A DNA stretch of 57,508 nt from Monosiga brevicollis MX1 (GCF_000002865.3 NW_001865078.1:170103-227610); one strand, 5' to 3'; positions 17,981-40,025 are shown, counted from the stretch's first letter. The notes: generated by a model from the letters alone, not told the origin. Numbers and translations: made by a program.

Positions 17981-18163
17981 CACTGGCAGATGACGGTAAT
18001 AAGAATCATCCGAAAATTAAAGCCTTCCACCCTCTAAAATGAAACCAAAGACCTTTTTTGTTGTTCGGTGGTGATTCTTTGCATTAACTTGTTGGTGCAG
18101 GCTCTGCTCGAGAGAGTCAATTGGAAACGGGCGTGTTTGACTTTGTGAGCCGAATTAAATGCG

Positions 18164-21100
18164 CTAAAGAGGCTGAACAAAACGCTTTGCGTGCTTGGCG
18201 CTGGTATCAGTCCTGTCTTCCAACTTGTAGTGAACAAAGAGCTCAGGATACAGCTGTTCGGTTTCGAAAACAATAACTTCATGATGCTCACAAGCTGGCG
18301 TCGCAAGCACCGAGTCATATCTGCTTTGCCGGTGTGGGTGATAAACCAAACAACCGAAAACGTGAGAAAATAGCGCAGAGCAAGACAAGTTCAAGCATGC
18401 CGATTGCCGAACAACCAACCGCTCATTGCTGGGTGCGCTTTGCAGCAAGGGTGGAGCTAACCACGAGCTGCGATCAAGCTTGATTTCCCCTTGATCGAGG
18501 ACGTAGGTTTGCCCCAGAAGTGCGCGCGTGATAATCAACACATGCTCGTTGTCCTCCGAGCACGGCATTGCAAATCGATGACTCTGTCAAACACGAATAT
18601 GAGAGGTCGAGTTTCATACGCCATGGTGAAAGTGAAATGACAACGAACCTCTGCAGGGTTATCAGTCAAGTATACACCGAAACCAAATCGATGACCAGCG
18701 TTGCTTCCACTAAAGCGCTTGTCAAAACCCAACCGCGCAACCTTATCGCATAGCGCGCGATCGGCACTTATGCCGTGAAGCAGCAACCGCTCTTGGCATG
18801 GCGAGTCCCAATGCAAGACTGGTTGACCTGGTAGTGCATCCACATCATCTGTACGGAGTTGTGCAACGTGATTGTTGTTGTCGATGCGATGCAACATCTC
18901 CCGCCGCTTTGCACTGTAGCGCTCCCACAACACGGGGTTTTGAACGCGCTCTACTCGTTGTACGACAATGTTGGCTAGTCCCCGCCCATCAGGGCTCAAT
19001 TGACAGAGCAGCTCAGCCACCTATGCACACAATAAATTCAAATCAGACGACCTGTAAAAGAGCATCAAATCGTCGTAAAACGCACCTCTGGAATAAGCTC
19101 GGGCGCGTCGCGCAAAACGTCAATGGCTGGCCCGACTTGGGCAGCAGGTTGCTGTAGAATTTGCCCGGCGCTAAGTAGATTCGGCCTTTGCTTCTGATCT
19201 GTTGCAAGCAAAGCTCGCGTTTCCTTGTACAGCTGGCTCGTCGAGTCGCACATCTGCATCAGAAGCCAAGGTGAGTTTCAATCAAATAGGACGCGCGGTG
19301 GCCAGTTGCCAAACAAGAGATTTTGCAATTCGCTGACCTCGGTAGCCAACTGAGGGAAGGCGCAGTTGAGATCTTCCAGATGCATGCTCCATCTGCATTG
19401 ATCCACAACCTCATCGGTCTGCGACCGAGCCGGCGGCACCGTTCGCGGGAACATGTATGTGTTGTAGAGAACGCAGCCAAAGGCAAAGGCATCCTGTGCC
19501 GGACGCGCCCCCACACGACCACGGCCAAAAAGCACCTCTGGAGCGACGTAGCCCGCCGTGCCAGACAGGGCAGTAGCCGTGAATGGTAGCATGGTGGCTT
19601 CAGCGGCGGCCTTGGCAATGTCAAAATCACCCAGCCGCACGACGGGCTGGTCCTCCTCGCCGTCTAACATGACATTGCTCAGCTTGACATCTCGGTGTAC
19701 CAGGCCCTTGCTGTGCATAAACGCCAGGGCCATGCGCAGCTGCGTCATGAGTCCTGCAACCACGGTCGAGGTGGCCAGATGGCGCGCCCTACCGAGCCAC
19801 TGCTGCAGATCCCCCTGTGTACACCATGGCTGTACCAGGTATGCGCTTGGGTGGCCATCTCGCACATCCACAAGCGCGCCGAGGACTGGGACGATGTATG
19901 GGTGCTCAAGCTGACGCATGGCGCGGAGTTCGCGGAGAAATGTCCGGCATTGGTCCTGCTTGTGTTGCTCGGCAAGTGCATACTCTTTCACAGCCAAATC
20001 TTGCTCAGAAAGATTCGGCAGCGTTGCGCGGGCTTTGTACACCTTGTGATTCTGGTTGTATTGGAGAGACAGTTGGCCCAGGCTGGAGAGCGTCAAACCC
20101 TGGTCTACTTCGGTCATGGCCTCCAAGATGAGGCTGGCTGGAAGGTCGGGGCCAAGCACTGTGCGGAGCCGCGCTCCCAGCGCGCTCTGGTCAGGGTACA
20201 AAAAGACCAGAAGAGCTGGGAAGTGTTGGTGTAGCAGCTCTGCCAGTGCCGCCACCTGGTCTACCTGTGTTTGATCCGATAGTTGTCGCTGCAAAATGAC
20301 CAAACGCTCCTTCATAGTTTGTAATCGAGCCTCGAGGCCAGCTCGCATCTCTTCGGGAGCCAAGGGCAAGAATGCCGTGGTTGCCTGGATGTTGTTCTGC
20401 AGCTCGGCCACTTTCTCGTGGATGGATACGACTTGATCCGTGCGGCTCTGCGTGATGCCATCGGCATAGCTTTGGCACGAAGTTAGCACGGACAGCGTCG
20501 TGGTCTGCCAGTCGATCATGTCTTGCAACTGCTGCACCAGGGCTTGCGCCTCGTGAAGCGCAAACGCCAGATACCAGTCTTGATGTCCATAGTCATGCTC
20601 TGCTCTCCAGGTTATCAGCTGCTCCAGGCCGTTCTGCTCGGGCAAGCTCAGCTTTTCGTGGGCTTGGCACAACTCCTCCCAGGCCTCGGGCAATGCCTCG
20701 GCTGGAGGTGGTGCACTCAAATCCAAGCCTTGCGCACTCTGCTCGAGTGTATCGACGCGATGGTCCGTGTCAGTGGTTCCCGCTCTTGCCACAGCACGCA
20801 GGGCAGTAATCAGCGCCTTCGCCAGCTGCTGGAGGTTGCTGTTGGCGTTGGTGAACAGTTCTATGCGGTTGGTTTCCACGTCGCGTAGCATGGCGACTTT
20901 ATCCAGGGCTGCACCGAGGTTGGCGGGCGGCGTTTCGGGTGCCATTGTCAGCGTGGTGGGTGGAGCGGGGCACGCTGCCAGCACGGTCTGAAGCTCGAGA
21001 AGCACTGGCTGTAGCTCAAAACCAGCAGCGGCATTGTGCAGCGCTTGCAGTACTGATTCTAGGTTGTCAGTGTTGGGGTCCAATTGACCCAAGCGGTTGT

Positions 21101-23019
21101 TCAACGCTTCGGGCGCTGCCAGTGCCTGGTCGAGCGCGCCGAGGGCCTGGGTGGTGGTCGCCTGGAAGGCAGCCCAGTCCATGGCAGGAAACTCTGGTGG
21201 CGCTTTATCGATGGTCCTCTGGATGTCCGCAACTGCCGTTGCAAGATTGGGGTTTTGTTTGGCGGCACCGCTGATAAAGGCATCGAGGTGGGGGAGGGGA
21301 TGGCTGGTGGTGCGCTCCGGCAAGAGGGGCCTGAGCCAGGTATCCACCGCCACCACAACAGAGGCCGTGGTCTAAATCAGGGTTGTGTGGTGCCATCGGT
21401 CGTGATCAGGTTGAATGAGGCCGTGGGGATTGGGGTAGTAAATGCATCGGGGAAAACATGATAGGGGGAGCAGGCTCACCTCGAGGGTGGGGGTGGGGGG
21501 CAGAGGCGGCAGCCAGGCAGAAGGCGGTGCCGGCGTGGGCGGAGCGAGGGGCGCGGGTGATTGCGATAGGCGAGTCTCGTGGGCAGCAAACACGGGCTCC
21601 AGCTTGTCGCCATGTCCATTGTGACGTCCGCATTCGAGGGGCGTTCGACCACCCTGAGAACATGTGATTGGAGCGTGTGAGGTGGGCAGCGACGCGAGGG
21701 CTGAGTTGGGCGACGTGCATTTGCTTTCTAATAACAAAGGCGAGGTAACAATGTTTTAATGTGTGCTAAAGACGCCAGACGCGCGAGTGGTGTGAAAATG
21801 GTGCGGGCAGGGGGTCCGAAAGGAGACGCGTTTGGAGAAGGAAAAAAAAAAGAAAAAAGAAAAAAAGGCAACGGCGCGTGTGCCGGGGGCAAACGTGAAG
21901 GCACGGCCACCGAAAGCCGCTTGGGCGAGCGAGGGAGGCAGAGACATGATGGAAAGGGGGGTGGAGTGGTGCCCGGATGGATCAGAAAAAGGCAGAGCGA
22001 GGACGGCAGGCGGAAGACACCAGCAGGGAGCAGGGCGGGGCGCAGGGAGCACCGGCAAAGCGCGGACGCAAAGCAGGGGGAAGAAGAGGGATAGCGGGAA
22101 AGAAGAAAAGGAGCCAGGGGGGAGAACGGACGCGCACGGGTGGGCAGGGTGTAGAGGAGAGGAGGGACGGGGGCAAAGGCGACGGGGCAGCGGGAGCAGG
22201 AGCAGCAGCCAGAGGGGTAAAGGGGGGGAGAGGGAGATACTGTACTGACCTTGTTCTTGGCATTAGCATCAGCACCGTGCTTCAACAGCATCTCCACCAC
22301 CTTGACATGACCGTAAGCGCAGGCCAAGTGCAGTGGTGTCCAGCCACTCTGTGGGATGATGCATCAGCATGACGTACAGGTACAGCATCAGCATCATCAT
22401 CATCATCATCATCATCATGGGGTACAGGTGCACCATCATAAGGGGGTAAAGGGGGGAAGAGGGAGGTACTGTACTGACGTCGTTCTTGGCTTTAGTATCA
22501 GCACCGTGCTTTAACAGCATCTCCACCACCTCGACATGACCGTTTTCGCAGGCCCTGTACAGTGGTGTTTTGTCATCCTGTGGGATGATGCATCAGCATG
22601 ACGTACAGGTACAGCATCATCATCATCATGGGGTACAGGTGCACCATCATAAGGGGGTAAAGGGGGGAAGAGGGAGGTACTGTACTGACGTCGTTCTTGG
22701 CTTTAGCATCAGCACCGTGCTTTAACAGCATCTCCACCACGTTGTCATGACCCCAATAGCAGGCCCAGTGCAGTGGTGTATAGCCACCCTGTGGGATGAT
22801 GCAGTATATGTCCCATGTTATACCATAACGTCACCACATACAGTAAATAATTAAAAGTGTAACCAAGATCACACTACATAATACAAACAGCATACGTACC
22901 TCACTTCTTTTTTGGGCAGCATCTCGAATACGTTGTTGGTCCCAACTGCTCACCAGCTGCAGCGCCTCTTGTGGATTTGATGAACGACACGCATCGAACA
23001 GCTGCTTTCCATCACCCAT
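18164..23019 (-). CDS. Ankyrin repeat - helical linker - protein kinase - PARP catalytic domain fusion, copy 1 (3 canonical ankyrin exons), apparently intact
   Basis: ATG 23019. 99-bp ANK exons at 22788-22690, 22577-22479 and 22348-22250 (TPLHx[15 protein letters not shown]). Kinase in ORF 19278..21356: [37 protein letters not shown]; next exon gives DQKQRP. PARP exons: [45 protein letters not shown]. Confidence 0.88.
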
Positions 23020-23701
23020 GGTCACGGTATCTCTTTCGTTTTCCACCACCAATCTCATGAACCCCCTCCAAGTTTCAAAACCCAAAATTCGGACTGGGGT
23101 GCGACGTGCGCGCGCAGTTCCCAAAGCGGCAGCCAGTCGGCGGGCCTTTGCTCTTCCCTGCCTGATGCGCCAAACGACTCACCTCTGTCAAGAGTTGTGG
23201 GTGACAGTTGCGAGAACCGGTGTACTTGGTTGCCCAGGCGCAGGCGAGATCGATGGCCTCACCAAAATCGCAGTGATGCTCTCAACCAAAAAGTTCCGGC
23301 GTTGCCGCAAGGCCCCATCGGAGCACAAGCAATCAGTCACCACACAAAAAAGACGCCTCAAACAGCTCCGCTGATGCCAATGTCGATGTCGATACCGATG
23401 CCAAAGAGGGGAAGTAGGAAGAAGAGCAAATGCCAAACAAGAAGAAGAAGAAAATGCAAACGGTTGCAACCTTTTTTTATTTTGTTCAATCACGCAAGCA
23501 AATGGCGAAGTGCGGAAAGTGACGCGGACTGCAAGTCAAACGCACAAAAAAATAAAGCAAAAGTTTTCACCTTTTTTTCCTTTTTTTATTTTGCAATCAC
23601 GCAAGCAAATGCCGAAGTGTGTAAGTGTGTAAGAGTAAAAGTGGTTGCGAAACTGCTGCCATCTCTGTCACGAACCAGTGAGAAAGGAGAGATCGCGCTT
23701 T

Positions 23702-23949
23702 TTAGGATGTGATCTGTTTGTGGTCAATTCACAAAGCAAACAGAGGAAATTGAAACGGGAAAGGTACAAAGTAAAATGCCACTTCTGGTCTACAGAACCG
23801 TACTTATATCTCGGTGGCAGGAACAATCACAATGTTCTACAGGCTTCCTTGACGAGCGCCGTCAAGAATCATCAGACATCATCCTGGACTGGTATCTTCC
23901 AGAGTGTTCCAGCAGCTTCTGGACATACGTCTATGCTTGTAGTCCAATA
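23702..23949 (-). repeat. 3' LTR of the copia element
   Basis: Matches 27722-27992 apart from a 23-bp indel, a 1-bp indel and several substitutions. Preceded on the minus strand by a polypurine tract. Confidence 0.88.
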
Positions 23950-23958
23950 CTCCCCCTC
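23950..23958 (-). promoter_or_regulatory. Polypurine tract (PPT)
   Basis: Minus strand GAGGGGGAG directly after the RNase H stop and abutting the 3' LTR. Confidence 0.8.
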
Positions 23959-26900
23959 AAGCAGAGAAGCATAGCTTGCTTGTATGACGTTCATGAGCAT
24001 CTCTTGGAAGCGGCTTCGTCAGCAGATCAGCTATCATCTCATCAGTAGGACAATACACAATGTCCAATTGCTGTCGCTCGTACATCTCACGTAACGCGTA
24101 AAATTTGATCAACATGTGATGTTGTCCACGCTGTGCATTGCCATTGATCACGTTGGCGATGGCAGGTTGGTTGTCGCAATAGATGAGTGGTTTCAAGTCG
24201 GGTGAGAGATCCAACAACTCGTCCATCAGTTCATGCAGGATCAGGCTCTTGATAGCACCACTGTGTGCAGCCATATACTCAGCTTCTGCAGTTGATGCTG
24301 CTGTAGTCGTCTGTCGCTTGGAACGCCAGTATACTGGTCCGTTGCACAAGAAAATAACGCAACCTTCACGTGATTTCTTGTCATGCTCTTGAGCAAAGCT
24401 TGCATCAACGTACGTATCCAGCTGCAATCTCGTAGCAGGCGCTTGGCAGCTTGCCAGTGAGTCTCATCAAACCCCTGATTGTGAGCACTCAGGAAGCTAA
24501 CTGTGGCAGCAATGTCTGGTCGAGTGTGAGTAGCCAGGTAATTGAGCTTGCCTGTCAGCTTGCGAAAGGGAAATGACTCATCTCGGGAATCGATTCGCTC
24601 GAGCTTGAGTCCAGCAGGCCACGGTGTCGCTGTTGGCTTGGATGAAGCCATGTTGAACTCCTTGAGAATGCTTTCGATGTATGCAGTCTGCTTGATCACG
24701 ATGGAGTCCTTCGAAATGGTAAACTCCATGTTCAGAAAGTTCTTGATCTGTCCAAAGTCTTTAGTCTCAAACTTGTGCAAGAGCTTCTGCTTGAAGTCGG
24801 CAATGATGCGCTCAGAGCTGCCCACGAGCACGATGTCGTCAACATAGGCCAATGCCCATAGCGTGTCGATGCCTGCCGTGTAGACGTAAACACATTCATC
24901 CTGTCGGAGTCGGCGGCAGTGCAGCCCAGTTCGAAAATACTTGTCGAGTTCAAGGTACCATGCTCGCGAGGCTTGCTTCAGGCCATAGACTGCCTTGTTG
25001 AGCTTTGCATACTCACAACCCCCAAGTCCAGCTTCAAGACCACGTGGTACACGTACATAAATGTCTTCTTCGAGAGGGGCGTGAAGAAAAGCCGTCTTCA
25101 CATCCACTTGGTGCACGTGGTAATGCTGATGCGTTGCAAGTGCCATCAACAGGCAGATGGTGGTCATGTTCACCGTTGGCGAGTACGTCTCATCGTAATT
25201 GATGCCTTCACGTTGCTTGAAGCCCTTGGCGACAATGCGGGCCTTGTACCGGCCATCTTGCTTGATGTCGAATACCACACAAAGATCAAGCACATCCGCA
25301 TTGGGCTTGTGGTCCAGGCCAATCAGGACCTGGTGTTCTTGAAAAGATGCCATCTCATTGTCCAAGGCACGTTGCCAGGCGGAAGCATCTGGGCGAGTGA
25401 GAGCGTCTGCCACGCTCTGTGGTAGTTTTGCAGTCGAGCACCGGTTGGCAAAGTGGCCTAGTTCGGTTTCATTCAGGCGATCATACTTGCTCTTGTTTCG
25501 GCCATTGCCGGCGCTTCGGCGTGCTGCTAGGCGGGCTCCAATACCGTCGTCTGCTTCAGGACTGCTGGGCAAGGAATGATTTGTTGGTGAGGCAAATGGT
25601 GTTGCATCTGGACTTGATGTTGCTGTTGGTGATCCTGGCACCGGTTCTGGGTCATCAAACATCATTGGTACCATAGCCTCTGTGGTCTCCAGGTCAGCAC
25701 TTGCATGAGTGTAATCCGCACTGCGCCATGGCTGCAGCGAGTCGAGTGATGGCAACGTCACATTCTCCCCCTCATCACGAGAGTGGGGCGTCAGCTTCAA
25801 GTGCACGGTCTCAATCATCTTCTTGGTATCCAGCATGTACACCTTGTGCGAGAGCTTGGCAGGGGAATATCCCACGTAAATGCCCTTGCGCGCCTTGCGG
25901 CCAAACTTGAAGTCGCGGTGGTCCTTGTCACAGACGTACGCATCTGCACCAAAATCATGCAGGTCCAGGAGTGTATGTGGGTTGCGGCCATGCAAAAGCT
26001 GGTAGGCCGACATGTCGTTGAGAACCTCCTTGACCTTGATGTTGATCAAATATTCAGCGTGCTTGGCTGCATACGCCCAAAAGCCACGGGATAGCTTGCT
26101 GTCCTCCAGCAGTACACCAACCATGTCTCGAATTTCACGAAACGTGTTCTCAATCGCACCATTCATCTGCGGTGTGCGAGGTGGCGAGCAGCGCCACGTA
26201 ATACCGAGCTCCTTGAGCTTGGTTCGGAAGGCAGTGCTGCGATACGGTCCATCGTTGTCACTCTGAAAGATAGTCTGCCGGGCAATATCGCGCTCATTGA
26301 CCTTGACGGGAATGCTTGAATCGCGCAACATACGCTGAAAGCTCACCAGCAGCTCGTCTTTGCTCTTGACCGGGTCCAAGAACAGGTAACCAGTGGCAAT
26401 GTCCTTGTATGCAATGATGTACTTGTCGCCACGCAATGATGGGGGCGAAATGGGGCCAAACATGTCCGAGACCATCAAATCTCCCGGGCGACGAGGTGCC
26501 CTCGGTTCAGCTTTCTTGGGAATGGAGGCGAGCTTGGCCTTGTGAAGATGACATTCCTCGCAGCTGTCTAGCTTGTTCTCCAACTGCGTCAAGTCGACCT
26601 CCTTGTCCTTCAACATCTTGCGCGTTGCTGCTGCGGGTGGGTGTCCTAGGCGTCGGTGCATGTCAACAATGGTGTCATAGGACATATCTCGTACGACGTC
26701 AATGTCAAATGTGTAGAGTGGCAGTCCGTGCATCTTGTACTGAGCCTTCCACACCACGTTGTCCTGCTTCATGACAATGGTATCATAGCTTGGCATGGTC
26801 ACGTCCACGCCGGTCTTGCCCAGTTGACTCGTCGAAATGAGGTTGCGGGAAAAATCAGGCACGTAGCAGGCATCACGCAGCACGATCTGCTGCATCACTC

Positions 26901-27408
26901 CATCTTCATCCGTCACCAGCATACGAGCCGTACCAATGGCTTGAGATACCACCATGCGTCCTCCAGCATCAATCGGGACCTTGTGGATCTCCATGCTTTC
27001 GAAAAGTTTGGCATTGTTCAGAAAATGGCTGCTTGCTCCTGTGTCCACAATGGCCATGTCTTGACCTACTGGAATGCTTGCATGTGCCTCCTCCTGCACC
27101 GTGACAACGCTCACGTGCGCATAGGCACCAGGCGGCCCATTCTTCTGGTTCTTCTTGACGTCGTTTTTCTTCTTCTTGCAGTCAGCTTGCTTGTGGCCAT
27201 AGCCCTTGCAATAATGACAGTTGCCGTCAAAACGATGAAATTCATCTTGTTGTTCCTTGGAATGCTGCTTGCCGCGGCGCACACCACGGCGCCCCCGGCC
27301 ACGACCATAATTGCCTTGGTCAGGATACCTTTGGCCAGAACCACGTCCACGGTGAGATTGAGAGGCGTAGTAGGCTGCCTCAGCTTCTTGTTGTTCCTCA
27401 CACGGCAA
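23957..27408 (-). pseudogene. Copia gag-pol polyprotein, frameshifted near 24425 and lacking the capsid part of gag
   Basis: Two overlapping ORFs carry RT and RNase H separately. The YLKGT...GL segment usually found after AAKRLLR is absent. The ORF starts only about 60 aa before the zinc knuckle. Confidence 0.8.
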
Positions 27409-27708
27409 AATCCAACCCTTGGTTACGACGAATGAAATCTCCTTGTTCTCGGTAAGGTGTCACAGGCACCAAGTACACAGCTCCAGCCAGGCGACACAAG
27501 CACCAAGGCGAGCTCAAAAATTTTCCGCACAGCTCCAACCGGACGACACAGGCATCCACAGTGAGCTCAGGCTTTGTACAGCTCCAGCCGAGTGACACAG
27601 GCACTCCAGGCGAGCTCAGCTCTCACAGCTCCAGCTGGTGCAGCGCAACCACAGCGAGCTAGAAGCCGCAACACAGATCGAGACGAATTGTCAGCATGCG
27701 TCCATCGA

Positions 27709-27719
27709 GGCCCATAACC
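27709..27719 (-). promoter_or_regulatory. Primer binding site (copia-type GGTTATGGGCC)
   Basis: Minus strand ...CCTCA aa GGTTATGGGCC immediately inside the 5' LTR; this motif is typical of copia elements primed by an internal tRNA-Met fragment. Confidence 0.75.
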
Positions 27720-27721
27720 TT

Positions 27722-27992
27722 TGAGGATATGATCTGTTTGTGGTCAATTCACAAAGCAAACAGAGGAAATTGAAACGGGAAAGGTACAAAGTAAAAATGC
27801 CACTTCCGGTCTACAGGACCGTACTTATATCTCGGTGGCAGGAACAATCACAATGTTCTACAGGCTTCCTTGACGAGCGCCGTCAAGGATCATCAGACAT
27901 CATCCTGCAGTCGTTAATCACGATAGTCAGGACTGGTATCTTCCAGTATGTTCCAGCAGCTTCTGGACATACGTCTATGCTTGTAGGCCAAT
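27722..27992 (-). repeat. 5' LTR of the copia element
   Basis: Begins TG on the plus strand (ends CA on the minus strand) next to the PBS; homologous to 23702-23949. Confidence 0.88.
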
Positions 27993-30900
27993 GAGGCTGG
28001 CTGGAAGGTCCGGCCCAAGCACTGTGCGGAGGCGCGCTCCCAGCGTGCTCTGTTCAGGGTGCAGAAAGACCAGCAGCGCTGGAAAGTGTTGGTGCAGCAG
28101 CTCTGCCAGTGCCGCCACCTGGTCTACCTGTGTTTGATCCGATAGTTGTCGCTGCGAAGTGACCAGACGCTCCTTCATAGTTTGTAATCGAGCCTCGAGG
28201 CCAGCTCGCATCTCTTCGGGAGCCAAGGGCAAGAATGCCGTGGTTGCCTGGATGTTGTTCTGCAGCTCGGCCACTTTCTCGTGGATGGATACGACTTGAT
28301 CCGTGCGGCTCTGCGTGATGCCATCGGCATAGCTTTGGCACGAAGTTAGCACGGACAGCGTCGTGGTCTGCCAGTCGATCATGTCTTGCAACTGCTGCAC
28401 CAGGGCTTGCGCCTCGTGAAGCGCAAACGCCAGATACCAGTCTTGATGTCCATAGTCATGCTCTGCTCTCCAGGTTATCAGCTGCTCCAGGCCGTTCTGC
28501 TCGGGCAAGCTCAGCTTTTCGTGGGCTTGGCACAACTCCTCCCAGGCCTCGGGCAATGCCTCGGCTGGAGGTGGTGCACTCACATCCAAGCCTTCCACAC
28601 ACTGCTCTAGTGTGTCCACGCGATGGTCCGTGTCAGTGGTTCCCGCTCTTGCCACAGCACGCAGGGCAGTAATCAGCGCCTTCGCCAGCTGCTGGAGGTT
28701 GCTGTTGGCGTTGGTGAACAGTTCTATGCGGTTGGTTTCCACGTCGCGTAGCATGGCGACTTTATCCAGGGCTGCACCGAGGTTGGCGGGCGGCGTTTCG
28801 GGTGCCATTGTCAGCGTGGTGGGTGGAGCGGGGCACGCTGCCAGCACGGTCTGAAGCTCGAGAAGCACTGGCTGTAGCTCAAAACCAGCAGCGGCATTGT
28901 GCAGCGCTTGCAGTACTGATTCTAGGTTGTCAGTGTTGGGGTCCAATTGACCCAAGCGGTTGTTCAACGCTTCGGGCGCTGCCAGTGCCTGGTCGAGCGC
29001 GCCGAGGGCCTGGGTGGTGGTCGCCTGGAAGGCAGCCCAGTCCATGGCAGGAAACTCTGGTGGCGCTTTATCGATGGTCCTCTGGATGTCCGCAACTGCC
29101 GTTGCAAGATTGGGGTTTTGTTTGGCGGCACCTCTGATAAAGGCATCGAGGTGGGGGAGGGGATGGCTGGTGGTGCGCTCCGGCAGGAGGGGCCTGAGCC
29201 AAGTGTCCACCGCCACCACAATACAGGCCGTGGTCTAATTAAGGGTTGTGTGGTGCCATCGGTCGTGATCAGGTTGGATGAGGCCGTGGGGATTGGGGCA
29301 GTAAATGCATTGGGGAAAACAAGATGGGAGAGCAGGCTCACCTCGAGGGTGGGGGTGGTGGGCAGAGGCGGCAGCCAGGTAGAAGGCGGTGCAGGCGCGG
29401 GCGAAGCAAGGGGCGCGGATGATTGGGCCAGGCAAGCCTCATGGGCAGTAAACACGGGCTTCAGCTTGTCGTCATGCCCGTATAGACGTCCGTATTCGAG
29501 GGGCGTTTGACCACGCTGAGAACATGGCCACAGTCAAGCGATCGGAACGTGCGAGGTGGGCAACCACACGAAGTTGAGTTGAGCGATGTGACAAAGCTTC
29601 AGAGTGTGTCAGAGCCGCCAAACACGAGGGCATTATACAAATAGTGCGGGCAGGAACCGGGGTCCGAAAAGAGGCGCGTTTGGAAAAAAAAAAAAAAAAA
29701 AAAAAAAGGAGCGGCGCGTGTGCCGGGGCAAAACTGAAGGCACGGACACCAAAAGCCGCTGGAGCGCAAGCGAGGCAGAGGTGTGATGGCAAGGGGTAGA
29801 GTGGTGCCCGGATAGATCAGAAAAGGGGAGAGCGAGAACGGCAGGCGGAAGAAATCATGCAAAACGGGGTAAGAAGAGGGATAGCGGGAAAAAAGAAAAG
29901 GAGCCAGAGGTGGAACGGACGAGCACGGGTGGGCAGGGCGTGAAGGAGAGAAGAACGGGGGGCAAAGGCGACGAGCAGCGGCAGCAGGAGCAGTAGCCAG
30001 AGAGGAGGGGAAGAGGGAGTTCCTGTACTGACATTGTCCTTGGCTTTGGCATCAGCACCGTGCTTCAACAGCATGTCCACCACCTCAACATGACCGCCAA
30101 TGCAGGCAACGTGCAGTGGCGTTTCACCACCCTGTGGGATGATGCAAACAGCACGACGTACATGCACAGCAACTTTTTCATCATCATGTGGTACAGGTGT
30201 ATATCATGGGGGGGGAGGAAGGTACTGACGTTGTCCTTGGCTTTGGCATCAGCACCGTGCTTCAACAGCATCCCCATCACCTTGACATGACCCTTATGGC
30301 AGGCAACGTGCAGTGGTGTACGGCCATCCTGTGTGATGCATCAGCATGACGTACAGCATCATCATCATCATCATCATGTGGTACAGGTGTATCATCATAA
30401 AGGGAGGGTAAGGGGGTGAAGAGGGAGGTACTGAACTGACGTTGTTCTTGGTTGTAGCATCACCACCGTGCTCCAACAGCATCTCCACCACCTTGACATG
30501 ATCCTGATCGCAGGCATAGTGCAGTGGTGTATAGCCATCCTGTGGAATGATGCATCAGCGTTATATACAGCATTATCATCTTCATCATCATGTGATCCAG
30601 GTGTACCATCATGGAGGTACTGCACTGACCTTGTCCTTGGCTTCAGTAGCAGCACCGTGCTTCAACAGCATGTCCACCACCTTGACGTTACCGTTACTGC
30701 AGGCATCGTGCAGTGGTGTACGGCCATTCTAGGTGATGCATCAGCATGACGTACAGGTACAGCATCATCGTCATCATGTGGTACAGGTGTATATCAACAA
30801 AAGGAGGGTAAAGGGGGAAAAGAGAGGTACTGAACTGACGTTGTTCTTGGTTGTAGCACCACCACCGTGCTCCAACAGCATCTCCACCACCTTGACATGA

Positions 30901-31967
30901 TCCTGATCGCAGGCATAGTGCAGTGGTGTATAGCCATCCTGTGGAATGATGCATCAGCGTTATATACAGCATTATCATCTTCATCATCATGTGATCCAGG
31001 TGTACCATCATGGAGGTACTGCACTGACCTTGTCCTTGGCTTCAGTAGCAGCACCGTGCTTCAACAGCATGTCCACCACCTTGACGTTACCGTTACTGCA
31101 GGCATCGTGCAGTGGTGTACGGCCATTCTAGGTGATGCATCAGCATGACGTACAGGTACAGCATCATCATCATCATGTGGTACAGGTGTATATCAACAAA
31201 GGGAGGGTAAGGGGGTGAAGAGGGAGGTACTGAACTGACGTTGTTTTTGGCTTTGGCATCAGCACCGTGCTCCAACAGCATCTCCACCACCTTGACATGA
31301 TCCTGATGGCAGGCATAGTGCAGTGGTGTATAGCCATCCTGTGGAATGATGCATCAGCGTTATATACAGCATTATCATCTTCATCATCATGTGATCCAGG
31401 TGTACCATCATGGAGGTACTGCACTGACCTTGTCCTTGGCTTCAGTAGCAGCACCGTGCTTCAACAGCATGTCCACCACCTTGACGTTACCGTTACTGCA
31501 GGCATCGTGCAGTGGTGTACGGCCATTCTGGGTGATGCATCAGCATGACGTACAGGTACAGCATCAGCATCATCATCGTTATCATGTGGTACAGGTGCAC
31601 CATCATGTAGGGGGTAAAGGTGCGAGGAGGAAGGAACTGTACTGACCCTGGCCTTGGCTTTAGCATCAGCACCGTGCTTCAACAGAATCTTCACCACATT
31701 GAGATGACCGTGAATGCAGGCATAGAGCAGTGGTGTATAGCCAATCTATGGGATGATGCCGTTTATGTTCGATGTTAGACCTCATTCAGTGACATATTCA
31801 AAGTGTAACCAATATCACACAGCATCATATCAAACAGCACATACACTAGATTTGTAATTGGCAGCAGCTCGAATGCATTGGTCGTCCCAACTGGTCAACA
31901 GCTGCAGCACCTCTCGGGGATCTGATGAACAACACGCCCTGTACAGCCGCTGTCCATCATCACTCAT
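27975..31967 (-). pseudogene. Ankyrin-kinase-PARP paralogue copy 2, truncated just before the kinase (9 canonical ankyrin exons + linker, stop inside the LTR)
   Basis: ATG 31967 (MSDDGQRLYRAC). Nine 99-bp ANK exons between 31745 and 30033. ORF 27975..29219 is nearly identical to the copy 1 linker up to ...DLPASLI, then reads GLQA* in the LTR. Confidence 0.85.
30330..31560. repeat. Three near-identical ~400-bp tandem units, each holding two ankyrin exons plus introns
   Basis: Near-identical ORF translations recur at 30468, 30867 and 31267 (offsets 399 and 400). Confidence 0.9.
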
Positions 31968-34230: not shown

Positions 34231-37200
34231 CTAATTGGCCGTGTAGTGTACAACCAGCTCGGGATAGATTTGGGCGTTCTCAAACACAATCACCTCATGG
34301 AATTGCCCAGGCGGCGTTGCAATAACCGAGTCATACCTGAAGGAAATTTCAATGGCAAACGCAACAAGTCAGATCAGGTGGCGGGCAAAGTCAACATGCA
34401 ACAAATACACGATTTTGTTCCACGCACCGCTCGTTGTTGGGCGCATCGGGCAGGAGCGGTGGTGCCACCGCCCCAGCACGAGGTGATGGATGGGCATGGG
34501 CATGGCCAAGGAGTGCTCGCGTGATGATGAGCATCCGTTTGTCGTTGGGTCCGGCACGAGCGTACTGATGACTCTGGTATCATGTAGGCACACAATGCGT
34601 CAGAACACCATCACTCATATAGACAAATCGCAATTGAAAGTCAGCGCGGCCATACCTTGCCGGGATGGTCGGCCAGGTAAACACCGAGACCAAATCGGTG
34701 GCCGGCACTGCTGCCAGCAAAGCGATAGTCAAGGCCCAGTCGCACAATCTTGTCGCGCAGCATTGTGTCAGGGCCGATGCCGTGGAGCAACAGGCGCTCT
34801 TGACAGGATGTATCACGGAGCAGAGCTGGAGAGCCGGAGGGTGCATCTAATGTGGACGCTTGGAGTTGATCATAGTGCTCCTGACTTTTGATACGATGCA
34901 ACATCTCGCGTCGCTTGGCGCTGTAGCGCTCCCACAGCACGGGGTTGTGCACGCGCTCTACCCGTTGCACTGCAATATTTGCTGGTCCCCGCCCATCGGT
35001 GTTCAGCTGCTTCAGTAGCTCACCCACCTAGCCACCCAGTAGGTTCAAATCAGACGATTCGTGGAAGCGCCAAAAAGCCAACAAGCAACGCACCTCTGGA
35101 ATAAGCTCGGGCGCATCGCGCAAGACATCAATGGCTGGCCCGGCTTGGGCAAAGGCAGACTGCTGCACGATCTGCCCGGCACTGAAGAGGCTTGGTCGTT
35201 GCTTTGAATCTGTTGCAAGAAAGGCTCGTGTTTCCTTGTACAGATTGCTCACTGCGTCGCACATCTGCACAGAAACACAGCTGTGAACAACAACAACAAC
35301 AACAACAACAACGACGACGACGACGACGACGACGATGACAACCAGAGCGTCTTAAAATTCAAGAAAACAAAATATTTGACTGACCTCGGCCGCCAGATGA
35401 GGAAAGCTGAAGGCATCATCTCCCGCTTAAAAATCCCATCTGCAATGATCCACAACCGCATCGGTTCGTGACTGAGCCGGCGATACCGTTTGTGGGTACA
35501 TGTAGGTGTTGTACAGCACACAGCCGAAGGAAAAGGCATCTTGTGCCGGACGCGCCCCCACACGACCCCGGCCAAAAAGCACCTCCGGTGCGACGTAGCC
35601 CGCCGTGCCCGACGACGCGGTGGCCGTACATGGTAGCATGGTGGCTTCAGCGGCGGCCTTGGTAATGTCAAAGTCGCCCAACCGCACGACGGGCTGGTCC
35701 TCTGCACCGTCCAGCATGACGTTGCTCAGCTTGACATCTCGGTGCACCAGGCCCTTGCTATGCATAAACGCCAGGGCCGTGCGCAGTTGAGTCATCAGAC
35801 TTGCAATTACGGTCGAGGTGGCCAGGTGCCGTGCCGTGCTGAGCCACTGCTGCAAATCACCCTGTGCACACCATGGCTGTACCAGGTATGCGCTCGGGTG
35901 GCCACTGTGTACGTCCACGAGCGCACCGAGGACCGGGATAATGTGTGGGTGCTCAAGCTGCCGCATGGCGCGGAGTTCACGCAGGAATGTACGGCACTGG
36001 TCTTGTTTGTGTTGCCGAGCAAATGCATACTCCTTGACAGCCAAATCTTGCTCCCCAAAATCTGGTATCACGGCGTGGGTCTTGTACACCTTGTGATTTT
36101 GATTATAATGAAGATCAAGCTGACCCAGGTTGGAGAGTGACAGTGTGCGGTCCACTTCAGTCATGGCCTCCAAGATCAGACTGGCTGGAAGGTCGGGGCC
36201 AAGCACTGTGCGGAGCCGCGCTCCCAGCGTGCTCTGTTCAGGGTGCAAAAAGACCAGCAGCGCTGGGAAGTGTTGTTGCAGAAGCCGGGCGAGCTCTACG
36301 ACGTGGTCCACACGTGGCTGATCTGATAATTGCTGTCGCAAGGTGTCGCGTTGCGTTTCTAGCTTTTTGAGTTCTTGCTCGAGAGCAGACCGAAGAACTT
36401 TGGGCACGAGCTGTAGAGCTGCGCTGCTGTTTTGAATCTCAGTCTCCACCTTGGTTAGTTCCTCGTGGGCAGCAGCCGATTCATCATCAACGTCTTGAGT
36501 CAAGCTGTTCACATGACTCATGCACGAGGTCAACACGGAGAGCGTCGTGGCCTGCCAGTCAATCATGTCTTGTAACTGCTGCAGCAGAGCTTGCGACTTG
36601 TGGTGCACAAACGCCAAGTACCAATCCTGATGCTCGTAGTCTGTAGGTGGTTGCCACTGAGCAATTTTTTGAAGGCCATTGTGCTCGAGCAGGCTCAGCT
36701 TCTCGTGAGCTTGGCACAGCTCCTCCCAGGCCTCGGGCAAAGCCTCGGCTGGAGGCGGTGCACTTGCATCCACGCATTGCGCGCATTGCCGTAGCGTTTC
36801 CACGCGATGAATCGTCTCGCTGGTTCCAGCTTTTGCCACGGCGCCCAGGGCATCGATCAAGGCAAGCACTAGGTGCTTGAGGTTGCTGTTGGCACCGGTG
36901 AGCAGCTCTTGACGCTTGGATTCTACGCCGCTTAGAGGGATCACTTTGCCCAGGGCCGCTGCCAGGTCGGTGGGTGGTGTCTCAGGCGCGATTAATGGCG
37001 CGGTGGGTGGAGCGGGGCATGCTGCCAGCACGGCCTGAAGCTCAAGAAGAACTGGCTGCAGCTCGAACCCAGCAATGATATCGTGCAGCTCTTGCAGCAC
37101 TGAGTCCTGGCTGTCACTGTTGGGATCCAATTGCTTCAAGCGGCTGCTCAACGCTTCGGGCGCTTCCAGTGCCTGTTCGAGTGCGTTGAGAGCCTGTGTG

Positions 37201-38554
37201 ATGGTGGCTTGAAAAGCAGACCAGTCCATGTCAGGGAAGTCTGGTGGAGTTTGATTGATGATCTTCTGGAAGGTAGTAGCTGCCGCAGGATTGAAATCTT
37301 GCTTGATGGCACCGCTGATAAATGCATCGAGGTGCGAGAAGGGATGGGTGGTGGTATGCTCGGGCAGAAGCGGCTTGAGCCAAGCTTCCACCGTCAGCAC
37401 AATGGAGGCCGTGGTCTGATGTTTTGAAGTTTTGTTGTGGGTATGCACTCGGATTAGAGAAGCGTTTTCAATGGGGACGCATGTATAAGCATAATGTTGG
37501 AACAGGCTAACCTCGAGGGTTGGTACGAGGCTAGGCAGGGTCAGCAGCCATGGGAGGCTGGCTTCGTAGGCAGCAATCATGGGCTCTAGCTCATCGCCAT
37601 GCCCGTTTTTACGCCCCAGATCGAGGGGCGTTTGGCCATCCTGAAAACATGGCCACAATCAAGCGATCAAAGCGTGTGAGCTGGACAGCAATGTACGAAT
37701 AAACTCGAGCGTTATGCTTTTTTTCTTTACAAAAAAAATATCCGATATAATAATATATTCAGGAAGCACTCAGAATGTGCAAAACCGCTCAAGGTCGAGC
37801 GGTTCACAACTGAAACAAACAGATGCAGGATGGGTATACACAAGCAATGCCAGGGAAAAAGGCAAGGTCTAGCAAACACGGGCAAGAACAAGGCGAGTCA
37901 CAGGCAGAACCGAAAGGGGCCGAGGCAAGGCGGTATGAAAGAAAGACCTCGAAGATGTACAGCAAGTAGGGTGTAGAGAAACACAACAAGCAGAGCAGGA
38001 AAAGGATGAGAGAGAAGAGATAAGTACCAACTTTGTCTCTGACTATAGTGTCAACGCCGTGTGTCAGCAGCATTTTTACCACGTCCACATGACCTTGGCC
38101 ACAGGCCCAGTGCAGCGGTGTCCTGCCACTCTGTGGGTCGATGGACCATTAACGAGTGTTAGTTACAATGTATCAAAAGACGCATGATGACGACATTCAA
38201 GTTGAATGTGGGCAGAAGAAGGAGACACTGACGTTGTTCCTGGCTTCAACCTCAACGCCGTGCTCCAACAGCTTCTCCGCCACTTCCAACTGACCGTGGA
38301 AACAGGCCCAGTGAAATGGTGTCCAGCCGCGCTATGGGTTGATGCGTCACCATTACGTTCAAGTACACAGTATAATGAGTATCAGGTCGTGCCATGACGT
38401 CTAGGCTTATGATCTGAAACGGGTACAATGTGACGTGACGTACCTTATCTTTGAAAGTGGCATCCCAACTGTTCAATTCATTCATCAGCTGCAGTGGTTG
38501 TGGATTCAATGACCGACATGCCCAGTACAGCGAATCGCTGTCTGCATCATTCAT
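34231..38554 (-). CDS. Ankyrin-kinase-PARP fusion, copy 3 (2 canonical ankyrin exons), apparently intact
   Basis: ATG 38554. ANK exons 38331-38233 and 38130-38032. Kinase in ORF 35427..37658 has the same motifs as copy 1. PARP exons ERLLLHG, FGLGVYLADHPGK|SHQY, YDSV..FHEVIVF..IYPELVVHY. TAG at 34231-34233. Confidence 0.88.
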
Positions 38555-39137: not shown

Positions 39138-39977
39138 TTAATGTCGATGAAGAAGAAAAATCAAAACAGGCAAAGAGGAAAAATGCCCATTCACACCGGT
39201 TTCTGGTTTCTGATGCTTCAAACACACTTACACGGACATGTACATGTAAGTGATACCAAGTTCTTTCCCACGTCTCAGTCCCTCTCCCCCAAAAAACCCA
39301 AAAGGACAAATCATTACCAACAACCTGAAGAGGTCAATGTCCTGACGATGAACAATCGTTACCACAAAGACCAAGCATACTTGTGCCAAACACACACACA
39401 CAAGCCACGAGCAACACTCGAGACAGAGCGAGGCATTTCATATTCATCCGAATCGTCGATGTTGACGGCACCCGTGGATGCCAATGTTCGCACCGATTGA
39501 TGACCGTATGTTGACGGTGCGTGCTACTAGATCCCATGGATGCCAAAGATGGTGATTCGCGCCGATTGATGAGTGAAAGGGGGAGTCAGAGTGAGAGAGA
39601 AAGCGTCAAGCAAAGCGGGCAAAATGGGAAGATGGAATGAGTTGCAAAGTGAGAAGAGATCAGGAATTTGCAGGTTCGGGTGGTTGCCAAACTAGCAACA
39701 TACGATATCAAAATGTTCTCTGCTCGCAAGACGGCATCACATGGATCGCACGGATTTGCATAGTTTTGCACAGTTCGTCCCAGCCAGCGGCGTTTGTCGA
39801 TCTCGGCGGGAGTGGTCAGTTGAACTACATGTAGTGCTTTATCGAACCTTGAAATTTATAGGTTTTTATGCAATTTACAATTTTACATGTTGATAAAACA
39901 TGACATTGTTTACATCATCAGATCTGTGGTGTGTGATCAAAATTAAATTTTCATTTTATGTCAGACTTTTTATATGA

Positions 39978-39980
<3 letters not shown>

Positions 39981-40025
<45 letters not shown>
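39981..40025. repeat. (TG)n microsatellite
   Basis: Seen directly. Confidence 0.95.

What the first reader, a model, noticed from the sequence alone, without database searches (positions are those of the whole stretch)
18164..38554. Tandem family of ankyrin - kinase - PARP fusion proteins: candidate sensor/effector system
Seen: three head-to-tail paralogues. Copies 1 and 3 splice in frame from ankyrin repeats through a ~400-aa helical/coiled-coil linker and a kinase with VAxK, HRD and APE motifs into a PARP catalytic domain retaining the H-Y-E triad (LLHG, GVY, HEVIVF). Established: tankyrases are ANK-SAM-PARP and have no kinase; many PARPs act in antiviral defence. I do not know a characterised ANK-kinase-PARP protein. 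Inference: variable repeat sensor plus oligomerising linker plus two modifying enzymes, in a rapidly rearranging cluster, resembles an intracellular immune-type receptor. The linker differs a lot between copies 1 and 3 while the kinase is close to identical.
Basis: partly seen in the sequence, partly recalled or inferred. Interest (0 to 1): 0.88.

Follow-up and report, generated by a model that had tools for sequence, protein, structure and literature searches.

The report
Ankyrin-kinase-PARP gene family in Monosiga
The window, from the choanoflagellate Monosiga brevicollis, holds three tandem copies of a species-restricted gene family whose proteins join ankyrin repeats, a helical region, a protein kinase and a PARP enzyme; only one copy is intact, and the family's function is untested.

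Summary
The architecture is real. The window is Monosiga brevicollis MX1. Three head-to-tail minus-strand paralogues lie at 18164-38554.

- **Copy 1 (18164-23058)** is intact. RNA-like contigs splice its exons at canonical GT..AG sites. One contig runs from the kinase exon across three introns into the PARP exons. A fourth 65-nt intron inside the PARP domain (18584-18648) is retained in both such runs. If retained, it gives a stop before the catalytic Glu.
- **Copy 2** has at least 8 one-exon ankyrin repeats and a linker 97% identical to copy 1. It ends at the LTR of a Ty1/copia element, so it has no kinase or PARP.
- **Copy 3** has every exon but carries an in-frame TAA (35427-35429) in the kinase.

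The family has 24 gene models on 14 scaffolds. All are from M. brevicollis, and none was found elsewhere. Kinase catalytic residues are invariant but the Gly-rich loop is degenerate. The PARP domain is closest to PARP12/15 and keeps H-Y-E. dN/dS is below 1 in every domain: kinase 0.17, PARP 0.13-0.17, linker 0.34, ankyrin 0.47.

No NTPase, SAM or other known domain lies in the linker. The immune-receptor reading is plausible but untested. The gene models have long been in public databases, and I found no description of the kinase-PARP fusion in print.

The parts
18164..23058 (-). Copy 1 gene (public model MONBRDRAFT_39174 = P0001). CDS exons: 23058(or 23019)-22900, 22788-22690, 22577-22479, 22348-22250, 21653-21480, 21371-19338, 19253-19086, 19020-18649, 18583-18420, 18320-18164 (stop included).
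   Evidence: Spliced contigs of runs X1/X3; GT..AG at every intron; open frame of 1161/1174 aa. The public model skips exon 22577-22479.
21480..22788 (-). Copy 1 ankyrin module: three 99-nt single-repeat exons plus a fourth degenerate repeat with a Pro-rich tail (21653-21480).
   Evidence: Pfam Ank hits; exon scan; joints 22787/22899, 22576/22689, 22348/22479 and 21652/22249.
20067..21371 (-). Copy 1 linker (435 aa). It is an orphan region predicted to be all-helical.
   Evidence: No Pfam family. AF2 mean pLDDT 49, all helices, with helices 264-365 at pLDDT about 84. Homologues only in M. brevicollis (6 of 6 hits). No Walker A motif in the linker.
19086..20066 (-). Copy 1 protein kinase domain, interrupted by intron 19254-19337.
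   Evidence: Pkinase 4e-36. K, E, HRDxKxxN, DFD and APE are invariant in 8 of 8 members, and the Gly-rich loop is reduced to LGQLSLQ. Best solved relatives are generic Ser/Thr kinases (CHK2 2e-16).
18164..19020 (-). Copy 1 PARP catalytic domain, with introns 18584-18648 and 18321-18419.
   Evidence: PARP 8e-12. H and Y lie in exon 19020-18649 and Glu in exon 18320-18164. The closest solved chains to its N-terminal half are PARP15 and PARP14.
18584..18648 (-). 65-nt GT..AG intron inside the PARP domain of copy 1. It is retained in the RNA-like contigs. Retention shifts the frame and gives a stop at 18538, before the Glu-bearing half.
   Evidence: X1 record 1 (18420-18918) and X3 record 7 (18420-19017) run through it, while the neighbouring introns are removed. 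Sequence; truncated product.
23700..27992 (-). Ty1/copia-type LTR retrotransposon. LTRs at 23700-23948 and 27720-27992 (95-97% identical). Single ORF 24241-27459 (1072 aa).
   Evidence: RVT_2 3e-58, rve, gag_pre-integrs, Pol_BBD. LTR pairs. Flanking pentamers differ (GCGCT / GAGGC).
27993..31967 (-). Copy 2: start Met at 31967, ankyrin exons, a last ankyrin-like exon and the linker exon 29234-27993. It is cut off by the LTR about 20 codons before the kinase, with no kinase or PARP. The frame runs 6 codons into the LTR, with a stop at 27975.
   Evidence: blastn 20128-22803 versus 27991-30554. Linker is 97% aa and 97.8% nt identical to copy 1, dN/dS 0.26. No homology to copy 1's 3' part on the other side of the element.
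30033..31527 (-). Copy 2 ankyrin array: 8 intact 99-nt exons with AG/GT borders, spaced 189-211 nt apart, including a two-exon unit of about 400 bp repeated three times.
   Evidence: Exon scan; repeat hits.
34231..38554 (-). Copy 3 (poorly modelled as MONBRDRAFT_29987 = P0014). Exons: 38554-38444, 38331-38233, 38130-38032, 37640-37512, 37415-35385, 35264-35094, 35027-34656, 34573-34428, 34336-34231. All borders are GT..AG.
   Evidence: Pkinase 3e-34 and PARP 2e-5 on its ORFs. PARP domain versus PARP12 1e-11.
35427..35429 (-). In-frame TAA in the kinase C-lobe of copy 3 (codon 809 of 1087). Paralogue P0009 has Gln here.
   Evidence: alignment A1.

Best explanation
These are three tandem members of a Monosiga brevicollis-restricted multigene family with 24 gene models. 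The family encodes cytosolic multi-enzyme proteins built from four parts:
- an N-terminal cap helix followed by a variable number of ankyrin repeats, one repeat per symmetric 99-nt exon;
- an orphan helical region of about 430 aa;
- a Ser/Thr-type protein kinase;
- about 40 residues later, a PARP12/15-like ADP-ribosyltransferase domain with an H-Y-E triad.

Shown here: the kinase and PARP of copy 1 are spliced onto one mRNA, and the family evolves by birth and death. In the window, one copy is intact, one is truncated at an LTR retrotransposon, and one has a nonsense codon. All four modules are under purifying selection, strongest on the two enzyme domains and weakest on the ankyrin repeats.

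Inferred: the ankyrin module is the paralogue-specific recognition surface. It brings a target or ligand to a conserved enzymatic core, which then phosphorylates and/or ADP-ribosylates the target or itself. The many paralogues would provide different specificities. Retention of the 65-nt PARP intron may switch copy 1 between a PARP-competent and a PARP-truncated product.
For: - **Organism and family.** Of 75 hits, 19 are M. brevicollis proteins with 28-99% query coverage. The other 56 cover at most 34% (kinase only) at 44% identity or less.
- **Restriction to the species.** PARP-region search: 20 of 20 hits are M. brevicollis. Linker search: 6 of 6. Together that is 24 models on 14 scaffold sizes.
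- **One transcript.** X3 record 7 (1168 nt) reads 18207-18320 | 18420-19017 | 19083-19253 | 19338-19622. Seven CT..AC joints appear in X1 and/or X3, whereas X5 record 12 is colinear with the DNA.
- **Domains.** Pfam scores.
- **Kinase residues.** K, E, H-R-D, K, N, D-F and A-P-E are each present in 8 of 8 members.
- **PARP residues.** H in 7 of 8, Y in 8 of 8, E in 8 of 8. The Glu aligns with the third triad position of PARP12.
- **Selection, copy 1 versus copy 3 (NG86).** Ankyrin 0.47, linker 0.34, kinase 0.17, PARP N-half 0.17, PARP C-half 0.13, with dS 0.65-2.6. The kinase's conservation therefore reflects constraint, not recent homogenisation.
- **Identity among 8 members.** Ankyrin 0.37, linker 0.57, kinase 0.80, PARP 0.70.
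- **Decay of copies 2 and 3.**
Against: - No activity, localisation or partner is known.
- The kinase lacks the GxGxxG loop (only the first Gly remains; the Pfam match starts at profile position 22), so it might not bind ATP normally.
- The dominant RNA-like contigs of copy 1 retain intron 18584-18648, which would remove the Glu half of the PARP domain. The PARP of copy 1 is also the most divergent of the family (60% to P0008, against 64-78% for the other full-coverage hits).
- Contigs are assemblies, not single molecules.
- The AF2 models of the linker (pLDDT 49) and PARP (pLDDT 37) were too poor to test folds.
- The exhaustive HMMER search was swamped by giant ankyrin proteins (145 of the 150 rows listed), so it could not test for kinase+PARP fusions elsewhere.
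Confidence: 0.7

Rival explanations
1. Immune-type sensor/effector. The ankyrin repeats sense a pathogen molecule or a nucleotide messenger, the protein self-associates, and the kinase and PARP fire as effectors. This is analogous in layout to RNase L (ankyrin sensor, kinase-like dimerisation module, C-terminal effector enzyme; recalled, not tested).
For: - Lineage-specific expansion to 24 models, often several per scaffold.
- Birth and death within the window.
- The ankyrin module is the most variable part and changes repeat number by exon duplication.
- The PARP domain is nearest the PARP12/14/15/10 group. The vertebrate PARP family has been argued to take part in host-virus conflicts (PMC4038475, listing and start of abstract only).
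- M. brevicollis has inducible antibacterial and STING responses (PMC8592570, passages).
Against: - No NTPase/STAND, TIR, death or other immune signature in the linker.
- Whole-domain dN/dS is below 1, including the ankyrin repeats at 0.47.
- The family is not mentioned in the text of the M. brevicollis immune-response paper (0 occurrences of PARP, ADP-ribos or ankyrin). Its expression tables could not be read.
Confidence: 0.2
2. The kinase is a pseudokinase scaffold and the PARP is the only enzyme. The conserved kinase fold would serve for nucleotide-dependent regulation or dimerisation rather than phosphotransfer.
For: The Gly-rich loop is degenerate in 8 of 8 members (LGQLxLxYNQNH), and the Pfam match begins at profile position 22. 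The layout resembles RNase L and IRE1 (recalled).
Against: Every catalytic residue used for phosphotransfer (Lys, Glu, HRD Asp, Asn, DFx Asp) and the APE motif are invariant. Pseudokinases usually lose at least one of these (general knowledge). dN/dS is 0.17.
Confidence: 0.2
3. A decaying family without present function: the window copies are pseudogenes or gene-model artefacts.
For: - Copy 2 is truncated, copy 3 has a stop, and copy 1's PARP intron is retained.
- Many public models are fragmentary. Only 14 of 24 show all three PARP motifs by pattern, and 3 of 24 lack the kinase.
Against: - Copy 1 is transcribed and correctly spliced at 7 introns.
- dN/dS is 0.13-0.47 over dS of 0.65 or more.
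- Copy 3 has a single defect and all splice sites intact, so its loss is recent.
Confidence: 0.08

Closest known systems
Tankyrase (TNKS1/2; ANK-SAM-PARP)
   Same: N-terminal ankyrin repeats and a C-terminal PARP domain with H-Y-E. Weak sequence similarity of the PARP domain (E 7e-5).
   Different: No SAM domain. 3 to about 9 repeats rather than five ankyrin repeat clusters (recalled). A 430-aa helical region and a kinase lie in between. The PARP domain is closer to PARP12/15 (1e-11). A published survey found no tankyrase in M. brevicollis (PMC9688111, passages).
PARP12 / PARP15 / PARP14 / PARP10 catalytic domains (vertebrate mono-ADP-ribosyltransferases)
   Same: Best solved matches of the PARP domain (PARP12 1.1e-11, PARP15 5e-11, PARP14 7e-7, PARP10 6e-5). 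They share the N-terminal helix motif (VERVxNPxLWERY versus IERIQNxxLWxxY).
   Different: Those enzymes carry Ile/Leu at the third triad position (seen for PARP12 in the alignment; the rest is recalled), whereas this family keeps Glu. Their accessory domains are zinc-finger/WWE or macro domains, not ankyrin plus kinase.
RNase L (ankyrin repeats - pseudokinase - KEN ribonuclease)
   Same: The same order of modules: an ankyrin sensor, a kinase-fold domain and a C-terminal effector enzyme on one chain (recalled; analogy only).
   Different: The effector here is a PARP, not a KEN RNase. A long helical region separates the ankyrin repeats from the kinase, and the kinase keeps all catalytic residues. 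RNase L was not among the 60 best of 1721 solved kinase matches.
Ankyrin-plus-kinase proteins (RIPK4/ANKK1, TNNI3K, ILK, DAPK1)
   Same: Ankyrin repeats combined with a protein-kinase fold (recalled).
   Different: None has a PARP domain. None of them is among the top solved matches of this kinase.
'Ankyrin + PARP' proteins of M. brevicollis noted by Perina et al. 2014
   Same: Probably this very family. The paper lists M. brevicollis among species that combine ankyrin repeats with a PARP catalytic domain (PMC4245714, passage in section 3.1.3).
   Different: The passages seen do not mention the kinase, the linker, the copy number or the clustering. 'Kinase' occurs twice in the text, both times unrelated.

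Membership tests
PARP / ARTD catalytic domain (PF00644) | Profile match above the curated cut-off | tested here: met
   P0001 45.5 bits, P0008 44.4, P0014 40.1, against a cut-off of 26.7. Single exons alone fall below it (16-25 bits).
PARP / ARTD catalytic domain (PF00644) | H-Y-E catalytic triad | tested here: met
   His (LLLHG) and Tyr (GVY) align with PARP12/15. Glu (HEV) aligns with the Ile of PARP12 and lies 10 residues before the YPE motif. H 7 of 8, Y 8 of 8, E 8 of 8 members. Which PARP12 residue is the triad position is recalled.
PARP / ARTD catalytic domain (PF00644) | ART fold of the domain | tested here: inconclusive
   The AF2 model from 14 paralogues had mean pLDDT 37, so no fold search was run.
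PARP / ARTD catalytic domain (PF00644) | NAD+-dependent ADP-ribosyl transfer (mono or poly) | not testable with these tools
   Needs an enzyme assay. H-Y-E is necessary but not sufficient for chain elongation (general knowledge).
Tankyrase | SAM domain between the ankyrin repeats and PARP | tested here: not met
   No SAM family in the Pfam scans of P0001, P0008, P0223 and four others.
Tankyrase | PARP domain closest to tankyrase | tested here: not met
   Tankyrase-2 E 7e-5 to 6e-3, against PARP12/15 at 1e-11 to 9e-11.
Eukaryotic protein kinase (PF00069) | Profile match and catalytic residues (VAIK Lys, alpha-C Glu, HRD, Asn, DFG Asp, APE) | tested here: met
   125 bits against a cut-off of 31.7. 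All residues present in 8 of 8, with DFD in place of DFG.
Eukaryotic protein kinase (PF00069) | Glycine-rich loop GxGxxG | tested here: not met
   [12 protein letters not shown]: only the first Gly, in 8 of 8 members.
STAND / NLR-type immune receptor | Central P-loop NTPase (NACHT / NB-ARC) | tested here: not met
   No such Pfam family. The only Walker A pattern in 24 models is residue 70 of P0006, which lies outside the linker.
RNase L-like sensor-effector | Ankyrin - kinase fold - C-terminal effector on one chain | tested here: met
   Domain order. This is a resemblance of layout only.
RNase L-like sensor-effector | KEN ribonuclease domain; ligand-induced dimerisation | tested here: not met
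   No KEN/Ribonuc_2-5A family. Dimerisation is not testable here.
Ty1/copia LTR retrotransposon (the element at 23700-27992) | Two LTRs flanking gag-integrase-RT in copia order | tested here: met
   LTRs 95-97% identical. gag_pre-integrs 262-307, rve 323-430 and RVT_2 731-946 all lie in one 1072-aa ORF.

The most novel reading that the evidence does not exclude
The family is a choanoflagellate-specific innate defence arsenal. Each paralogue's ankyrin surface would recognise a different pathogen molecule or nucleotide signal. Binding would drive kinase-domain-mediated self-association, as in RNase L. The H-Y-E PARP domain would then ADP-ribosylate targets or consume NAD+. Intron retention in the PARP domain would act as a safety switch that keeps the effector truncated until it is needed.
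Probability: 0.15. Interest if true: 0.85.

Novelty: new variant of a known kind. Interest (0 to 1): 0.55.

Why it matters
A protein kinase and a PARP enzyme on one polypeptide, aimed by a variable ankyrin module, would couple two major protein modifications in a single molecule. I found no description of such a fusion in the papers I could search.

[quoted passage not shown] Its PARP domain is nearest the vertebrate clade linked to antiviral defence, yet it keeps the ancestral Glu.

If the family is a defence or stress system, it would be an independent invention of a repeat-sensor plus enzyme-effector design. If not, it is still a tractable natural test of kinase-PARP cross-talk.

The practical value of this check is threefold:
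- it shows that the fusion transcript is real;
- it gives corrected exon maps, since the public models of copies 1 and 3 are wrong in places;
- it shows that two of the three copies are dead.

Tried and rejected
- **Linker self-association** (complex prediction, residues 250-435, two copies): no answer. This is not evidence either way.
- **AF2 of the linker** (pLDDT 49) and of the **PARP domain** (pLDDT 37): too poor for any fold search, so none was run.
- **ESM Atlas on the linker:** no usable hit.
- **Exhaustive HMMER search with whole P0001:** 717,689 hits at E 0.001 or better. Of the 150 listed, 5 are family representatives and 145 are not (nearly all giant ankyrin-repeat proteins). It therefore could not serve as a domain-architecture search. 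In hindsight the query should have excluded the ankyrin repeats.
- **Metagenome scan with family patterns:** 588 pattern matches, of which 1 was confirmed, at 30% identity over the kinase only (L001).
- **Viral contigs:** 62 pattern matches, none confirmed.
- **Run search:** no RNA holder listed. The RNA nature of X1 and X3 is inferred from their spliced contigs.
- **Expression of copies 2 and 3** could not be examined because read laying is capped at one call. Variant positions seen on the linker exon mostly do not match copy 2, so nothing can be said about its transcription.
- **Whole-genome search:** no genome is held for this window.
- **Papers not held:** the M. brevicollis kinome paper and the genome paper. 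Either may classify this kinase family.
- **Differential-expression tables of PMC8592570** are in an unreadable archive. The two readable supplements held none of the terms searched.
- **Literature searches for the fusion** found no description. Citarelli 2010 included only three M. brevicollis PARPs. Of the two whose tree context I saw, one sits beside PARP3 and one beside PARP2 sequences, and none of the three ids is a model of this family.
- **Rejected readings:** tankyrase (no SAM domain, PARP clade differs), STAND/NLR (no NTPase), and kinase conservation through gene conversion (dS of the kinase is 0.65, like the other domains).
Full report
**What is there**

The window has 50-59% G+C and spliced genes. 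Stop-to-stop ORFs on the minus strand between 18 kb and 39 kb carry pieces of ankyrin repeats, a protein kinase and a PARP catalytic domain. A 1072-aa Ty1/copia polyprotein lies at 24241-27459.

The 697-aa ORF 19278-21371 is 99% identical to MONBRDRAFT_39174 of Monosiga brevicollis MX1 (P0001, 1128 aa). That protein's precomputed Pfam list holds Ank, Pkinase and PARP. My own scan of P0001 gives Ank_2 9e-30, Pkinase 4e-36 and PARP 8e-12, all above the curated cut-offs.

Self-comparison shows three copies in the same orientation:

| Copy | Span | Match to copy 1 |
|---|---|---|
| 1 | 18.2-23.1 kb | - |
| 2 | 28.0-32.0 kb | 86% DNA identity over 2.7 kb |
| 3 | 34.2-38.6 kb | 75% over 2.8 kb |

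A tblastn of the copy 1 protein finds nothing else in the window. Neighbouring genes are unrelated: a dehydrogenase/aminotransferase, an AAA protein, an FG-GAP protein, an O-fucosyltransferase and others.

**Copy 1 is an expressed fusion gene**

Ten public runs hold this DNA, and I laid four on 18100-23300.

- Contigs of X1 and X3 (one study) skip seven stretches bordered by CT..AC, which is GT..AG on the minus strand. The joints are 18320/18420, 19017/19083, 19253/19338, 21652/22249, 22348/22479, 22576/22689 and 22787/22899.
- X5 and X8 are colinear with the DNA (for example X5 record 12, 18100-19125). X1 and X3 therefore behave as RNA, and X5 and X8 as DNA.
- X3 record 7 (1168 nt, no mismatches) joins 19622-19338 (kinase), 19253-19083 (kinase subdomain XI plus spacer), 19017-18420 (PARP) and 18320-18207 (PARP C-terminus).
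- A loose end at 21480 matches the start of the large exon at 21371. This supports the intron 21372-21479.

All nine introns are GT..AG. The resulting frame encodes 1161 aa from MGDGK, or 1174 aa from an upstream Met. The public model omits the ankyrin exon 22577-22479.

These are assembled contigs, so they are strong evidence for one transcript but not single-molecule proof.

**An unexpected point: a retained intron in the PARP domain**

To pass from ...[10 protein letters not shown] to SHRFAMP..., the frame needs a further 65-nt GT..AG intron at 18584-18648. Both RNA-like contigs that cover it (X1 record 1, X3 record 7; k-mer depths about 650-680) run straight through it, while the introns on either side are removed.

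If retained, the frame ends at 18538. The product would then have the His and Tyr of the PARP domain but not the Glu-bearing half. Contigs drop minor variants, so the spliced form may also exist.

The downstream PARP half has dN/dS 0.13 against copy 3, so it has been translated over most of its history. I cannot tell whether retention is regulated, leaky or an early sign of decay. Copy 1's PARP domain is the most divergent of the family: 60% identity to P0008, against 64-78% for the other full-coverage hits.

**Copies 2 and 3 are broken**

*Copy 3.* It has every exon with intact GT..AG borders. A TAA at 35429-35427 replaces the Gln seen in paralogue P0009, within ...CRWDF*AGDDAFSFPHLAAE. The public model P0014 dodges the stop by skipping part of the kinase. 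As assembled, copy 3 cannot make a kinase-PARP protein. The defect is single and so probably recent, or it may be a sequence error.

*Copy 2.* It starts at 31967 and has at least eight intact 99-nt ankyrin exons, with a two-exon unit of about 400 bp repeated three times. It also has a last ankyrin-like exon and a linker exon. The linker exon shows 27 differences in 1244 nt from copy 1 (97% aa identity, dN/dS 0.26).

Homology ends at 27991-27992, exactly at the outer edge of an LTR. The element spans 23700-27992, with LTRs of 249 and 273 nt that are 95-97% identical. On the far side of the element lies copy 1's upstream region, not the rest of copy 2. The flanking pentamers differ.

A simple insertion therefore does not explain the structure. 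A deletion or ectopic recombination involving the element is the likeliest cause. This is an inference, and the LTR ends are only approximately placed.

**The family**

Three searches of the 5.8-billion-protein collection returned family members only from M. brevicollis:

| Query | Family hits | Other hits |
|---|---|---|
| Linker + kinase ORF | 19 of 75 | 56 kinase-only matches, at most 44% identity and 34% coverage |
| PARP region of P0008 | 20 of 20 | none |
| Linker alone | 6 of 6 | none |

Together these give 24 models on 14 scaffold sizes, with up to five on one scaffold. Pattern scans of JGI metagenome contigs gave one kinase-only match at 30% identity. Viral contigs gave none.

These searches depend on shared short words. 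The exhaustive HMMER run was swamped by giant ankyrin proteins. 'Restricted to M. brevicollis' is therefore well supported for close and moderately distant relatives, but it is not proven.

By pattern, 21 of 24 models have the HRDVKLSN motif and 14 of 24 have all three PARP motifs. Five have part of the PARP motifs and five have none. Many models are visibly fragmentary.

**The modules**

*Ankyrin.* There is one repeat per 99-nt exon, with codon-aligned borders and conserved flanking intron ends (...CATCCCACAG | exon | GTCAGT). Duplication or loss of a unit therefore keeps the reading frame. Mean identity among eight members is 37%.

*Linker.* It is about 430 aa with no Pfam family and no Walker A motif. 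It has no ESM Atlas neighbour. AF2 predicts helices throughout, but only residues about 300-365 exceed pLDDT 60. It is an orphan region. Coiled-coil or oligomerising behaviour is a guess.

*Kinase.* It matches Pkinase better than the Tyr-kinase profile and has the Ser/Thr-type HRDVKLSN motif. Lys, Glu, Asp, Asn, DFD and APE are invariant in 8 of 8 members. The glycine-rich loop is degenerate. Its best solved relatives are unrelated Ser/Thr kinases (CHK2, ULK1, StkP, PDK1, NEK2; E about 1e-16 to 1e-14), so it belongs to no recognisable subfamily.

*PARP.* It starts about 40 residues after the kinase. Copy 3's domain matches PARP12 (1.1e-11), PARP15 (5e-11), PARP14 (7e-7), PARP10 (6e-5) and tankyrase-2 (7e-5). 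His and Tyr align with those enzymes, and the Glu of HEVIVF aligns with the Ile of PARP12 in ...SIFVIFE... and sits 10 residues before YPE. I recall that position as the third triad residue. The domain is therefore H-Y-E in a PARP12/15-like sequence context. Whether it transfers one ADP-ribose or builds chains cannot be told from sequence.

**Selection**

Copy 1 versus copy 3, Nei-Gojobori:

| Region | Codons | dN/dS |
|---|---|---|
| N-terminus + ankyrin | 140 | 0.47 |
| Linker | 429 | 0.34 |
| Kinase | 281 | 0.17 |
| Spacer + PARP N-half | 146 | 0.17 |
| PARP C-half | 81 | 0.13 |

dS is 0.65-1.2 in all regions except the PARP C-half, where it is 2.6 and probably saturated. The kinase's high identity (82% here, 80% on average among eight members) therefore reflects constraint, not recent homogenisation.

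Nothing here shows positive selection. Pairwise whole-domain ratios cannot detect it at individual sites.

**How it most likely works**

Shown:
- The protein is one chain carrying a variable ankyrin module and two catalytically equipped enzyme domains, and it is transcribed as one mRNA.
- The family turns over rapidly.

Inferred:
- The ankyrin repeats give each paralogue its own target or ligand.
- The conserved linker-kinase-PARP core modifies that target or itself by phosphorylation and ADP-ribosylation.
- The close apposition of kinase and PARP suggests that one regulates the other.

I put about 0.7 on this general reading. I put about 0.2 on the specific immune-sensor version, and about 0.2 on the variant in which the kinase is a non-catalytic regulatory fold.

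**Comparison with what is known**

- **Tankyrase:** these are not tankyrases. They have no SAM domain and a different PARP clade, and a survey reports none in this species (PMC9688111).
- **STAND/NLR:** these are not STAND/NLR proteins.
- **RNase L:** the order ankyrin, kinase fold, effector enzyme recalls RNase L. I could not test this resemblance beyond domain order.
- **Perina et al. 2014** (PMC4245714, passages) list M. brevicollis among organisms that combine ankyrin repeats with a PARP domain. The passages do not mention a kinase.
- **Citarelli et al. 2010** (PMC2964712, passages and supplement search) analysed only three other M. brevicollis PARPs.
- Five full-text searches found no description of a kinase-PARP fusion. 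The M. brevicollis kinome and genome papers are not held, and they may classify the kinase.

**Verdict**

The feature is real and unusual. It is already present as uncharacterised gene models in public databases, but as far as I could search it is not described in print as a family. The immune interpretation is open.

Noticed in passing
window 35290-35350 (minus strand): The kinase intron of copy 3 contains a trinucleotide run that reads as poly-Val, poly-Ser or poly-Leu in the three frames (VVVVVV..., [15 protein letters not shown]). Copy 1's equivalent 84-nt intron lacks it.
   Followed up: no
window 20148-20303, 20720-20754, 21270-21361: The 27 differences between the linker exons of copies 1 and 2 fall in three clusters, separated by long identical stretches. 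The pattern suggests patchy gene conversion with other paralogues rather than even divergence.
   Followed up: partly
window 22912 and 23073 (loose ends): RNA-like contigs match copy 1's first exon and then diverge 12 nt before its end. The diverging sequence reads ...YKDDR, which resembles other paralogues' exon-1 ends (AQYKD...). Other family members with near-identical 5' regions are probably transcribed too.
   Followed up: no
one search hit table: Outside the family, the best kinase matches in the big protein collection are bacterial-type Ser/Thr kinases (Planctomycetota, Polyangia, Streptomyces). Several are fused to TPR, AAA or NACHT-like modules, at 31-38% identity. This may only reflect the make-up of the database.
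   Followed up: no
P0018, P0019, P0225 (other scaffolds): Public models P0018 and P0019 consist of ankyrin repeats plus linker without kinase or PARP, like copy 2 here; P0225 (328 aa) has no ankyrin, kinase or PARP motif by pattern, only the linker. Truncated members may be common, or these may be partial models.
   Followed up: no
window 3059-3310: A run of 252 N (an assembly gap).
   Followed up: no
window 39937-41397 (+): An ORF of 487 aa with six FG-GAP-like repeats (PF13517, 3e-73) lies directly upstream of copy 3. O-fucosyltransferase fragments lie at 41629-43509.
   Followed up: no
window 21654-22249: The 596-nt intron of copy 1, between the third ankyrin exon and the last ankyrin-like exon, is much longer than the other introns (65-130 nt). 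It translates as Pro/Ser/Leu-rich low-complexity sequence, and a weak ankyrin-like tblastn hit reaches into it (22351-22097).
   Followed up: no
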